Of a stretch of 64,000 bases of DNA, positions 32,422 to 35,700 are shown piece by piece. The DNA comes from the human T2T-CHM13v2.0 reference genome, Homo sapiens. Made by a program: the position numbers and the translations under genes. Where the stretch lies: assembly GCF_009914755.1 (NCBI RefSeq), contig NC_060927.1. The stretch is one strand, 5' to 3'. The notes beneath the pieces were generated by a model, which was not told the DNA's origin, searched no databases, and saw nothing but the letters and a program-made list of their open reading frames with translations. The stretch's first letter is position 1. The number at the start of each line of letters is the position of its first letter.

Positions 32422-32521
32422 GGCTGGGCATGGTGGCACATGCCTGTAATCCCAGCACTTTGGGATGCGGAGGCAGACAGATCATGAGGTCAAGAGATGG
32501 AGACCATCCTGGCCAACATGG
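32422..32521 (+). mobile_element. Alu 5' fragment, broken at a rearrangement junction
   Basis: GGCTGGGCATGGTGGC...CCTGGCCAACATGG then an abrupt switch to L1 sequence. Confidence 0.9.
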
Positions 32522-32731
32522 CCAAAGCAATCTACAGATTCAATGTAAACTCCATCAAAATACCAATGATGTTCTTCACAGAAATAGAAAAAACAATTCT
32601 GAAATTTATACGGAACCACAAAACACCCAGAATAGCCAAAGCTATCCTAAGCAAAAAGAACAAAACCAGAGGAATCAGAGAGTATAAATATCCAAATAAT
32701 CTGGAAAAATATGAGAAAGGAAAAACAGACT
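32522..32731. other. Two templated insertions: inverted copies of 26529-26685 and 13890-13944
   Basis: 32522-32677 = revcomp(26529-26685), 5 substitutions plus 1 indel by eye; 32677-32731 = revcomp(13890-13944), 53/55. Confidence 0.9.
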
Positions 32732-35700
32732 TTGGATACTGTAGCCTTGTAGTATAGTTTGAAGTCAGGTAGCGTGATGCCTCCAGCTTTGTTCCTTTTA
32801 CTTAGGATTGTCTCGGCAATGTGGGCTCTTTTTGGGTTCCATATGAACTTCAAAATAGTGTTTTCCAATTCTGTGAAGAAAGTCATTGGCAGCTTGATGG
32901 GGATGGCACTGAATCTATAAATTACCTTGGGCAGTATGGCCATGTTCACAATATTGATTCTTCCTATCCATGAGCATGGAATGTTCTTCCATTTGTTTGT
33001 GTCCTCTTTTATTTCGTTGAGCAGTGGTTTGTAGTTCTCCTTGAAGAAGTCCTTCACATCCCTTGTAAGTTGGATTCCTAGGTATTTTATTATCTTGATA
33101 GCAAGTGTGAATGGGAGTTCACTCACGATTTGGCTCTCTGTTTGTCTGTTATTGGTATATAGGGATGCTTGTGATTTTTGCACATTGATTTTGTATCCTG
33201 AGACTTTGCTGAAGTTGCTTATCAGCTTAAGGAGATTTTGGGCTGAGATGATGGGATTTTCTAAATATACAATCATGTCATCTGCAAACAGGGACAATTT
33301 GAGTTCCTCTTTTCCTAATTGAGTACCCTTTATTTCTTTCTCCTGTCTGATTGCCCTGGCCAGAAGTTCCAACATTATGTTGAATAGGAGTGGTGAGAGA
33401 GGGCATCCCTGTCTTGTGCCAGTTTTCAAAGAGAATGCTTCCAGTTTTTGCCCATTCAGTATGATATTGGCTGTGGGTTTGTCATAAATAGCTCTTATTA
33501 TTTTGAGGTACGTTCCATCAATACCTAATTTATTGAGAGTTTTTAGCATGAAGAGGAGAATCAAATAGATGCAGTAAAAAATGATAAAGGGGATATCACC
33601 ACTGATCCCACAGAAATACAAACTACCATCAGAGCATACTATAAACACCTCTATGCAAATAAACTAGAAAATCTAGAAGAAATGGATAAATTCCTGGACA
33701 CATACACCCTCCCAAGACTAAACCAGGAAGAAGTGGAATCCCTGAATAGACCAATAACAGGCTCTGAAATTGAGGCAATAATTAATAGCCTACCAACCAA
33801 AAAAAGTCCAGGACCAGATGGATTCACAGCCAAATTCTACCAGAGGTACAAAGAGGAGCTGGTACCATTCCTTCTGAAACTATTCCAATCAACAGAAAAA
33901 GAAGGAATCCTCCCTAACTCATTTTATGAGGCCAGCATCATCCTGATACCAAAGCCTGGCAGAGACACAACAAAAAAAGAGAATTTTAGACCAATATCCC
34001 TGATGAACATCGATGTAAAAATCCTCAATAAAATACTGGCAAACCGAATCCAGCAGCACATCAAAAAGCTTATCCACCAAGATCAAGTTGGCTTCATCCC
34101 TGGGATGCAAGGCTGGTTCAACATATGCAAATCAATAAACGTAATCCATCATATAAACAGAATCAAAGACAAAAACCACATGATTATCTCCATAGATGCA
34201 GAAAAGGCCTTCGACAAAATTTAACGGCCCTTCATGCTAAAAACTCTCAATAAACTAGGTATTGATGGAACGTATCTCAAAATAATAAGAGCTGTTTATG
34301 ACAAACCCACAGCCAATAGCATACTGAATGGGCAAAAACTGGAAGCATTCCTTTTGAAAACTTGCACAAGAGAGGGATGCCCTCTCTCCCCACTCCTATT
34401 CAACATAGCGTTGGAAGTTCTGGCCAGGGCAATCAGGCAAGACAAAGAAATAAAGGGAAATTATTAGGAAAAAATCAATTAGGAAAAGAGGAAGTCAAAT
34501 TGCCCCTGTTTGCAGGTGACATGATTGTATATTTAGAAAACCCCATCGTCTCAGCCCAAAATCTCCTTAAGCTGATAAGCAACTTCAGCAAAGTCTCAGG
34601 ATACAAAATCAATGTGCAAAAATCACAAGCATCCCTATACACCAGTAACAGACAAACAGAGAGCCAAATCATGAGTGAAGTCCCATTCACAATTGCTCTC
34701 AAGATAATAAAATACCTAGGAATCCAACTTACAAGGGATGTGAAGGACCTCTTCAAGGAGAACTACACACCACTGCTCAACGAAATAAAAGACAACACAA
34801 ACAAATGGAAGAACATTCCATGCTCATGGATAGGAAGAATCAATATCGTGAAAATGGCCATACTGCCCAAGGTAATTTATAGATTCAATGCCATCCCCAT
34901 CAAGCTACCAATGACTTTCTTCACAGAATTGGAAAACACTATTTTAAAGTTCATATGGAACCCAAAAAGAGCCCACATTGCCAAGACAATCCTAAGCAAA
35001 AAGAACAAAGCTGGAGGCATCACGCTGCCTGACTTCAAACTATACTACCAGGTTACAGTAACCAAAACAGCATGGTACTGGTGGCAAAACAGATATATAG
35101 ACCAATGGAACAGAAGAGAGGACTCAGAAATAACACCACACATCTATAACCACCTGATCTTTGACAAACTTGACAAAAAGAAGAAATAGGGGAAGGATTC
35201 CCTGTTTAATCAATGGTGCTGGGAAAACTGGCTAGCCATATGTAGAAGCTGAAATTGGATCCCTTACTTACACCTTATACAAAAATTAATTCAAGATGGA
35301 TTAAAGACTTAAATGTTAGACCTAAAACCATAAAAACTGAAGAAGAAAACCTAGGCAATACCATTCAGGACATAGGCATGGGCAAGGACTTCATGACTAA
35401 AACACCAAAAGCAATGGCAACACAAGCCAAAATTGACAAATGGAATCTAATTAAACTAAGGAGCTTCTGCACAGCAAAAGAAACTACAATCAGAGTGAAC
35501 AGGCAACCTACAGAACGGGAGAAAATTTTTGCAATCTATCCATCTGACAAAGGGCTAAAATCAAGAATCTAAAAAGAACTTAAATTTACAAGAAAAAATC
35601 AAACAACCCCATCAAAAAGTGGGCAAAGGATATGAACAGACACTTTTCAAAAGAAGACATTTAGGCAGCCAACAGACACATGAAAAAATGCTCATCATCA

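What the first reader, a model, noticed from the sequence alone, without database searches (positions are those of the whole stretch)
32422..34236. Fossil multi-step template-switch (FoSTeS/MMBIR-like) rearrangement built from three distant sites in the window
Seen: an Alu breaks at 32521 and is followed by three inverted copies. (i) 156 bp = revcomp of 26529-26685, sharing private variants AATGTAAACTCC and ACCAGAGG that the paralogous L1MA at ~36747-36900 lacks. (ii) 55 bp = revcomp of 13890-13944 (53/55). (iii) ~1.5 kb = revcomp of ~16008-17510, including the inversion junction of L1 copy A: TTTGATTCTCCT|CTTCATGC at 16690 reappears as GCATGAAG|AGGAGAATCAAA at 33553. Junctions show little microhomology, no TSD flanks copy B, and the host L1MA lacks the 5' part of ORF2. 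Established: twin-priming junctions are unique to an insertion, so two identical ones imply DNA-level copying; chains of templated insertions are the MMBIR/FoSTeS signature. Inference: one repair event jumped ~6, ~13 and ~4 kb and rejoined through L1 homology into copy B. About 4% donor-copy divergence suggests an old, fixed primate event that repeat annotation would mislabel as a 5'-inverted L1.
Basis: partly seen in the sequence, partly recalled or inferred. Interest (0 to 1): 0.8.

Follow-up and report, generated by a model that had tools for sequence, protein, structure and literature searches.

The report
Patched L1 end with borrowed junction
The 5' end of an old human L1 repeat was patched with short inverted copies of nearby DNA and later acquired, apparently by gene conversion, the inversion junction of a neighbouring L1; this is an ordinary kind of ancient repair scar, not one 1.5-kb template-switch event.

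Summary
The 55-bp piece has only itself and the local donor in the whole assembly. The 156-bp piece matches its local donor at 96% and the next locus at 91%. The junction 101-mer is full length only at copies A and B.

The "1.5-kb copy of L1 copy A at about 4% divergence" is not uniform. Only about 0.7 kb (33391-34090), spanning the junction, is specifically A-like: 14 differences in 700 bp, 2.0%. The left 658 bp of the inverted arm differs from A by 7.4%, which is no closer than unrelated L1 copies elsewhere in the genome. In the best tree it groups with copy B's own direct arm. The right 143 bp is B's own L1.

Best reading, at about 0.5 confidence, has two steps:
- An old break repair joined a truncated Alu, two templated inverted fillers and an inverted L1 arm.
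- Later, non-allelic gene conversion from twin-primed copy A overwrote B's arm boundary.

A single event followed by later conversions is not excluded. This is a new example of known mechanisms, of low to moderate interest. Orthologous ape and monkey loci would decide between the readings.

The parts
32422..32521 (+). 5' 100 bp of an Alu, cut off at its 3' side (left break end)
   Evidence: Matches the first ~100 bp of many Alus in the window at 80-85% and stops at 32521. Retrotransposition cannot produce a 3'-truncated Alu (established knowledge), so a later break is implied.
32522..32677 (+). Filler (i): inverted copy of 26529-26685, an L1MA ORF2 fragment
   Evidence: 6 differences in 157 columns. 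Best genome-wide non-self hit is the local donor at 96%, next 91%. Private word shared only with the donor.
32677..32731 (+). Filler (ii): inverted copy of unique sequence 13890-13944
   Evidence: 53 of 55 identical. Only 2 matches in the whole genome, itself and the donor.
32731..33390 (-). Old inverted L1PA arm (L1 antisense, about X+836 down to X+165); donor uncertain, nearest relative is B's own direct arm 34395-35066
   Evidence: 7.4% from A. A is not among the 40 best genome-wide hits, which reach 94-95%. Cherry with Bdir at 99/97 and shared complex variant at 33092-33099. A-like patch at 32795-32800.
33391..34090 (.). A-derived tract of about 0.7 kb carrying copy A's twin-priming junction (33553); inferred gene-conversion tract
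   Evidence: 14 differences in 700 bp to reverse-complement A (about 16153-16853). Scan LLR 15.0, reached by 0 of 500 null placements. Sister to A-inv at 98/89, end branches 0.010 against a median of 0.035. 6 shared derived sites in 33553-34098.
34091..36463 (+). L1PA copy B, own direct body and A-rich tail
   Evidence: Collinear with copies C (92.6%) and A-dir (92.4%). 12% from A-inv right of 34099. A-rich tail ends at about 36463.
36464..38226 (+). 3' part of the host L1MA, right flank of B
   Evidence: 76% to 26979-25220. Its 5' part was not found on the left.
16006..18912 (+). L1PA copy A, canonical twin-primed insertion: inverted 16006-16690, direct 16691-18912. Native owner of the junction and donor of the 0.7-kb tract
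   Evidence: 9-bp target-site duplication at 15997-16005 and 18915-18923. 8-bp overlap at the inversion point.
26529..26685 (-). Donor of filler (i), inside a contiguous L1MA (about 25220-27934, minus orientation)
13890..13944 (-). Donor of filler (ii), non-repeated sequence

Best explanation
Two old DNA-level events are superimposed at the 5' end of L1PA copy B.

Event 1 is as old as the L1 copies themselves, with pairwise divergence of about 4-6%.
- A double-strand break lay between an Alu and copy B.
- The sequence in between was lost, including the rest of the Alu, the 5' part of the host L1MA and B's 5' target-site duplication.
- The gap was sealed with newly synthesised, inverted patches. 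These are about 0.8 kb copied from B's own body, in fold-back fashion, then 55 bp from 19 kb upstream, then 156 bp from 6 kb upstream.
- The patches were joined with 0-1 bp of microhomology, that is, by end joining of unwound synthesis products.

Event 2 is younger, at about 2% divergence.
- B now had an antisense arm next to a sense arm. That arrangement mirrors twin-primed copy A, which lies 17 kb away in the opposite orientation.
- Non-allelic gene conversion (gap repair or SDSA) used A as donor, with L1 homology on both sides.
- It overwrote about 0.7 kb across B's arm boundary with A's sequence, including A's unique inversion junction.

Shown: the copies, their boundaries, the two divergence levels, and that A owns the junction. 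Inferred: the order of steps, fold-back as the source of the arm, and conversion as the mode of transfer.
For: Two ages:
- The central tract has 14 differences in 700-710 bp. The left arm has 49 in 658 bp. Fisher p = 1.8e-6; scan statistic 0 of 500.
- The central region is not a slow part of L1. Median end branch of 40 other copies there is 0.035, against 0.010 for the A/B pair.
- B-lineage private changes number 15 in the 658-bp left arm and 6 in 711 bp of the centre (binomial p = 0.047).

A is native to the junction:
- It has a target-site duplication and an 8-bp overlap at the inversion point.
- That agrees with the 1-10 bp overlaps or deletions reported for 32 of 32 twin-primed insertions (PMC11702581, passages).
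- Two other genomic L1s found show the same geometry.

The left arm is not A-like:
- A is absent from the 40 best of 7439 and of 8934 candidates.
- Tree of the left arm gives (Binv,Bdir) at 99/97 and (A,C) at 98/96.
- Five rare variants are shared only by Binv and Bdir, each carried by 0-2 of 53 other copies and none co-carried. They include a complex change at 33092-33099.
- Binv lacks 4 rare variants that A shares with C.

The fillers are real and local.

Precedents, all read as passages:
- Fold-back synthesis at one break end, unwinding and NHEJ to the other end with 0-5 bp microhomology, and capture of several fragments at one break: PMC11724301.
- An inverted L1 later modified by intrachromosomal gene conversion, locus NCLI34: PMC1920257.
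Against: - The AU test does not reject Binv+A on the left arm (delta lnL 9.7, p = 0.35). The grouping was named after the tree had been seen.
- On the whole 823-bp arm, the constrained Binv+A tree scored 5.2 lnL better than the free search (p = 0.59).
- Binv shares rare variants with A at 32800 and 32795, and at 33303 together with C. The model needs an extra or patchy conversion to explain them.
- At three sites A and Bdir share a state that Binv lacks: 33528, 33340 and 33117.
- Fillers (i)+(ii), at 8 differences in 211 bp (3.8%), cannot be assigned to either age. Against the centre p = 0.20; against the left arm's distance to A p = 0.08.
- The model requires B to have had, by its own history, an inverted-then-direct arrangement compatible with A. 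The single-event model gets this for free.
- Outgroup copies were chosen by similarity to B or Binv, and only 40 candidates per genome search were scored.
- No outgroup species could be examined.
Confidence: 0.5

Rival explanations
1. One break-induced, multi-template event started from B, invaded the inverted segment of copy A by L1 homology, and copied 16003-17511 across A's junction. It then jumped to 13.9 kb and to 26.5 kb and was joined to the Alu. Later gene conversions (Bdir to Binv in patches, A and B re-homogenised in the centre, perhaps C to A) produced today's mosaic.
For: - It explains directly why B carries A's junction and why the arm ends at the same L1 coordinates, with no need for a compatible pre-existing structure.
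- Rare A-only variants sit at the far end of the arm (32800, 32795) and at 33432.
- The AU tests do not reject Binv+A.
- Incompatible sharing of rare variants among A, Binv, Bdir and C shows that local conversion does occur.
- Inverted-repeat-initiated BIR followed by an NHEJ or MMBIR junction is an established model: PMC11293582, passages.
Against: - It needs at least three or four later conversions.
- The left arm is 7.4% from A, as far as unrelated copies are. A's total derived load in the central region is only about 2% (11 of 546 sites).
- Binv lacks 4 rare variants shared by A and C, and carries 5 rare variants shared with Bdir.
- A is absent from the 40 best genome hits.
Confidence: 0.22
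2. The first event was a by-product of copy B's own retrotransposition. B's first-strand cDNA snapped back on itself, giving the inverted arm. It then picked up two local DNA patches and was joined upstream with loss of target DNA. The later A-to-B conversion is as in the best explanation.
For: - The Binv/Bdir split is about as old as typical L1 end branches (0.027-0.035 against a median of 0.023), so it may coincide with insertion.
- B lacks a target-site duplication.
- 15.7% of polymorphic mobile-element insertions are non-canonical, and many have internal rearrangements: PMC12350158, passages.
Against: - The five rare variants shared by Binv and Bdir are co-carried by none of 53 other copies. 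That fits mutations acquired after insertion rather than a source haplotype, though a rare source is possible.
- An overlap of at least 670 bp between arm and body is far outside the 1-10 bp seen in twin priming.
- The fillers are genomic DNA from within 20 kb and show no retrotransposition marks.
Confidence: 0.15
3. The inverted arm is the remnant of an independent L1 insertion lying head-to-head with B. It was truncated by the break that brought in the fillers, and later exchanged sequence with Bdir and A by conversion.
For: - The best genome-wide matches of the arm are unrelated copies at 94-95%.
- At three sites Binv has the common state where both A and Bdir are derived.
Against: - The shared complex variant with Bdir at 33092-33099 and the 99/97 cherry argue for common descent with Bdir.
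- It requires two same-subfamily insertions abutting head-to-head.
Confidence: 0.08
4. Assembly artefact or chance similarity.
For: None found.
Against: - The copies differ from their donors by 2-7%, so they are not collapsed or duplicated reads.
- E-values within the window run from 1e-19 to 0.
- The 55-mer is unique genome-wide apart from its donor.
Confidence: 0.02

Closest known systems
Templated and fold-back inverted insertions captured at double-strand breaks (hybrid synthesis plus NHEJ; PMC11724301, passages)
   Same: Several short templated pieces at one repaired break, all inverted relative to their donors. One is local (fold-back) and others come from a distance. Junctions have 0-5 bp microhomology and the donors are left intact.
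   Different: The pieces here are much longer (55, 156 and about 800 bp, against mostly under 35 bp in yeast). The event is germline, ancient and fixed in a primate genome. Fold-back origin of the 0.8-kb arm is inferred, not shown.
FoSTeS/MMBIR and inverted-repeat-mediated BIR (DUP-TRP/INV-DUP; PMC11293582, passages)
   Same: Chained template switches to nearby loci, with inverted homologous repeats used as a recombination substrate and a second junction with little or no homology.
   Different: No large duplication or triplication. Microhomology is 0-1 bp. The segments are not all of one age.
Non-allelic gene conversion between L1 elements (Tremblay et al. 2000, cited in PMC1920257, title only, content recalled; locus NCLI34 in PMC1920257, passages)
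   Same: A sub-kilobase tract in one L1 replaced by sequence from another L1 on the same chromosome, in an already inverted and rearranged L1.
   Different: Here the donor and acceptor are in inverted orientation. The tract carries a twin-priming inversion junction, so homology on the two sides comes from different arms of each element.
Twin-primed 5'-inverted L1 (Ostertag and Kazazian 2001, not held, recalled; features in PMC11702581 and PMC12350158 passages)
   Same: Copy A is a textbook case. Copy B would be annotated as one.
   Different: Copy B has no target-site duplication. Its inverted arm lies inside the coordinate range of its direct body, with at least 670 bp of overlap. Its junction is second-hand.

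Membership tests
FoSTeS/MMBIR complex rearrangement | Two or more templated segments from separate nearby loci joined at one site, donors retained | tested here: met
   Fillers (i) and (ii) plus an inverted L1 arm. The donors are present, and are the unique or best genome-wide matches.
FoSTeS/MMBIR complex rearrangement | Microhomology, typically 2 bp or more, at the switch junctions | tested here: not met
   0-1 bp at (i)|(ii) and (ii)|arm, and 0-2 bp with a mismatch at Alu|(i).
FoSTeS/MMBIR complex rearrangement | All segments created in one event, so of equal age | tested here: not met
   2.0% against 7.4% within the alleged third segment (p = 1.8e-6). The fillers at 3.8% fit either age.
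Non-allelic gene conversion | Tract of raised identity bounded on both sides by background divergence, with homology on both sides | tested here: met
   33391-34090 at 2.0% lies between 7.4% and 12% flanks, and both flanks are L1 homologous to A's arms.
Non-allelic gene conversion | Shared derived variants inside the tract, and donor and acceptor sisters there only | tested here: met
   6 shared derived sites plus the junction. Sister at 98/89 in the tract but not in the left arm.
Non-allelic gene conversion | A pre-conversion allele exists in lineages that split earlier | not testable with these tools
   No primate genomes are available here; G000 has no relatives (header).
Twin-primed L1 insertion (copy A) | Target-site duplication, A-rich tail, inverted 5' segment adjoining the direct segment in L1 coordinates with a small overlap or deletion | tested here: met
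   9-bp duplication and 8-bp overlap.
Twin-primed L1 insertion (copy B) | Same features | tested here: not met
   No duplication of 9 bp or more. The inverted arm X..X+836 lies within the direct range X-677..end. The junction is copied from A.
Endonuclease-independent or deletion-associated L1 insertion | No target-site duplication, loss of target DNA, L1 bridging a break | tested here: inconclusive
   There is no duplication, and loss of the Alu 3' part and L1MA 5' part is inferred. The same features follow from a later break, and the pre-insertion site is not available.

The most novel reading that the evidence does not exclude
A unique retrotransposition scar, a twin-priming inversion junction, was transplanted from one L1 into a neighbouring, oppositely oriented L1 by gene conversion that used a different arm of each element for homology on each side. 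This would be part of a local conversion network linking four L1PA segments (A, B-inverted, B-direct, C) within 30 kb. If so, junctions treated as homoplasy-free markers can be copied. The resulting 0.7-kb, 98% inverted repeat pair, 15 kb apart and 45 kb from TERC, could also drive inversion of the intervening segment.
Probability: 0.45. Interest if true: 0.4.

Novelty: new member of a known kind. Interest (0 to 1): 0.3.

Why it matters
- It is a cleanly resolvable, fixed germline example of two known processes in the human genome: templated-patch break repair, and ectopic conversion between dispersed L1s.
- It is a caution for repeat annotation and for using L1 inversion junctions as unique-event markers. 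Copy B would be labelled a twin-primed L1, but it is not one.
- It makes a sharp, cheap prediction for ape and monkey assemblies.
- No gene or annotated functional element is touched, so biological consequences are probably nil. A possible exception is inversion susceptibility of the 15 kb between the two arms.

Tried and rejected
- A specific donor for the left 658 bp of the arm was sought genome-wide and not found. The best matches are 94-95% on other chromosomes, among 40 scored of 7439 and of 8934 candidates.
- I tested whether copy A's dense private changes (19 in 200 bp at the A positions matching 33154-33353) came from conversion by the older L1MA. Only 3 of 16 A-private states match it, so this is not supported.
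- No target-site duplication for copy B was found with words of 9 bp or more between 32380-32740 and 36430-36560.
- One inverted duplication of 13.9-26.7 kb followed by deletions is rejected. The order of pieces, (i), (ii), L1, is not collinear with the donors.
- A spliced or read-through RNA as template is rejected for the same reason of order. There is also no poly-A or duplication at the fillers. RNA-templated repair cannot be strictly excluded.
- An Rfam scan of 19000-38000 found only the U6 copy.
- Tremblay et al. 2000 and Ostertag and Kazazian 2001 are not held. Their content is recalled.
- No search was made for papers on this particular locus, so I do not claim that it is absent from print.
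Full report
**What is there**

- Piece (i), 32522-32677, is the reverse complement of 26529-26685, with 6 differences in 157 columns.
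- Piece (ii), 32677-32731, is the reverse complement of 13890-13944, 53 of 55.
- 32731-34241 aligns to the reverse complement of 16003-17511 at 94.8% over 1513 columns.
- The 36 bases around copy A's inversion junction (16690/16691) are identical to the reverse complement around 33553.
- Junction microhomology is 0-1 bp, at most 2 bp with a mismatch at the Alu.

**Genome-wide checks**

The window's own assembly can be searched, with the best 40 candidates scored per search.
- The 91-mer over piece (ii) has two matches in 3.1 Gb, itself and the local donor.
- The 101-mer over the junction is full length only at B and at A (96%). The other 38 scored hits, of 1853 candidates, cover one half only.
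- Piece (i) matches its local donor at 96% and the next best locus at 91%, with 40 of 3228 candidates scored.

**Who owns the junction**

Copy A (16006-18912) has a 9-bp target-site duplication at 15997-16005 and 18915-18923. Its inverted segment ends 8 bp beyond the L1 position where its direct segment starts.

That is the canonical twin-priming geometry. Overlaps or deletions of 1-10 bp were seen in 32 of 32 experimental cases (PMC11702581, passages). Two unrelated genomic L1s that turned up show the same geometry, on contigs C23 and C13.

Copy B does not fit.
- No duplication of 9 bp or more flanks it.
- Its inverted arm (L1 coordinates X..X+836) lies inside the range of its direct body (X-677..end).

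The junction is therefore native to A and second-hand in B.

**The 1.5 kb is not one copy**

Differences between B's 5' region and A are strongly non-uniform.

| Interval | Differences | Divergence |
|---|---|---|
| 32731-33388 | 49 in 658 bp | 7.4% |
| 33389-34098 | 14 in 710 bp | 2.0% |
| 34099-34241 | 17 in 143 bp | 12% |

- A scan for the best low-divergence interval gives 33391-34090, LLR 15.0, reached by 0 of 500 random placements.
- The right boundary is sharp. Shared derived sites occur at 34080 and 34089, and a run of differences starts at 34099. Right of it the sequence is B's own L1.
- The central region is not a slowly evolving part of L1. In a tree with 40 other genomic copies, the A/B pair are sisters (bootstrap 98, SH-aLRT 89) with end branches of 0.010, against a median of 0.035.

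**The left part of the inverted arm is not specifically A-like**

- Genome-wide searches with 32731-33388 and with the whole arm return unrelated L1 copies at 94-95%. A is absent from the 40 scored hits, of 7439 and of 8934 candidates. B's own direct arm ranks 23rd at 93% in the first search.
- Against 53 other copies, the arm shares five rare states only with B's direct arm: 33098, 33097, 33092, 32860 and 32834. Each is carried by 0-2 of the 53, and no copy carries two. Three of them form one complex change.
- The arm lacks four rare states that A shares with copy C: 33050, 32911, 32773 and 32735.
- A tree of the left 658 bp gives (Binv,Bdir) at 99/97 and (A,C) at 98/96.

Evidence against this reading:
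- The AU test does not reject Binv+A (delta lnL 9.7, p = 0.35). The group was named after the tree had been seen.
- On the whole arm, the constrained Binv+A tree was 5.2 lnL better than the free search (p = 0.59).
- The arm shares rare states with A at 32800 and 32795, and at 33303 together with C.
- At 33528, 33340 and 33117, A and Bdir agree against the arm.

Rare variants are shared among A, Binv, Bdir and C in mutually incompatible combinations. That points to repeated local gene conversion.

**Ages**

- B-lineage private changes number 15 in the 658-bp left arm and 6 in the 711-bp centre (p = 0.047).
- The Binv-Bdir path length is 0.062.
- Fillers (i)+(ii) differ from their donors at 8 of 211 positions (3.8%). 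This is compatible with either age: p = 0.20 against the centre and p = 0.08 against the arm's distance to A.

**Most likely history (confidence about 0.5)**

Step 1:
- A break between the Alu and B lost the intervening DNA. The host L1MA right of B begins at 36465 and its 5' part is nowhere on the left.
- The break was repaired by synthesis-dependent patching. First came an inverted copy of B's own body made by fold-back priming of the resected end. That process produces exactly the observed layout of an inverted arm, a spacer and a direct body.
- Two further inverted patches followed, from 19 kb and 6 kb upstream. Near-blunt joining to the Alu end completed the repair.
- The hybrid mechanism is documented experimentally. 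It consists of fold-back synthesis, unwinding and NHEJ with 0-5 bp microhomology, and capture of several fragments at one break (PMC11724301, passages).

Step 2:
- B's antisense-then-sense arrangement mirrors copy A read backwards. A could therefore serve as donor with homology on both sides.
- About 0.7 kb, including A's junction, replaced B's original arm boundary.
- A closely similar history was proposed for locus NCLI34: an inverted L1 later altered by intrachromosomal gene conversion (PMC1920257, passages).

**Rivals**

It explains the shared junction without a second transfer. It then needs several later conversions to erase A's variants from the arm and to rejuvenate the centre. Confidence about 0.22.
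- Step 1 could be a by-product of B's own integration. L1 insertion sites do show deletions, inversions, templated insertions and cDNA hairpins (PMC11702581), and 15.7% of polymorphic mobile-element insertions are non-canonical (PMC12350158). Confidence about 0.15.
- An independent head-to-head L1 (about 0.08) and an artefact (about 0.02) are unlikely.

**Unexplained**

- Piece (i) and the outer end of the arm fall at nearly the same L1 coordinate in opposite orientation. They form a 168-nt, 74% inverted repeat with a 97-nt spacer that holds piece (ii). I estimate this has roughly a 1-2% chance of arising if the donor position were random.
- Four of the 14 central differences cluster within 21 bp, at 33508-33528, just left of the junction.

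**Verdict**

The mechanisms are known, so this is a new example rather than a new kind. Ape and monkey orthologues, which were not available here, would settle the order of events.

Noticed in passing
window 19578-20244 (minus strand), within 19225-21594: A full-length U6 snRNA copy (20138-20244, Rfam RF00026, 102 bits, model 1-105 of 105) abuts the 3' end of an L1 fragment (19578-20140, 91% to B's 3' end). This is the layout of a U6/L1 chimeric retrocopy made by reverse-transcriptase template switching (recalled). It sits inside an older L1 (19225-19579 and 20253-21594).
   Followed up: partly
window 29793-32408: A large inverted repeat lies just left of the finding. 30505-30965 matches 31575-32031 at 86.6%, and 29793-30200 matches 32018-32408 at 75%, with an Alu at about 30222-30506 in the left arm. 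Its element family was not identified.
   Followed up: no
window 5110-5933, 16691-17511, 32731-33553, 34230-35066: Rare variants (0-2 of 53 genomic copies) are shared among the four local L1PA segments in incompatible combinations. One state, at 32855, is shared by all four and by none of the 53. A and C form a 98/96 cherry despite separate target-site duplications. This suggests concerted evolution by local gene conversion.
   Followed up: partly
window about 16890-17090 (copy A): Copy A has an unusually dense run of private changes, 19 in 200 bp against 1-5 per 100 bp elsewhere. It is not explained by conversion from the nearby L1MA, which matches only 3 of 16 private states.
   Followed up: partly
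window about 34500 (copy B direct arm): A 14-bp insertion is private to B's direct arm. It is absent from the inverted arm, from A, from C and from all 25 comparison copies.
   Followed up: no
window 32510-32677 and 32775-32942: A homeologous inverted repeat (168 nt, 74%, 97-nt spacer) is formed by filler (i) and the outer end of the inverted L1 arm, and it encloses filler (ii). It may have guided template choice. Unexplained.
   Followed up: partly
G000 C23:57392492-57394971 and C13:78463953-78465620 (table): Two unrelated genomic L1PA copies show canonical twin-priming geometry. On C23 the inverted segment covers query 1-737 and the direct segment starts at 734. On C13 the inverted segment covers 1171-1337 and the direct segment starts at 1412. 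They are useful comparators for copies A and B.
   Followed up: no
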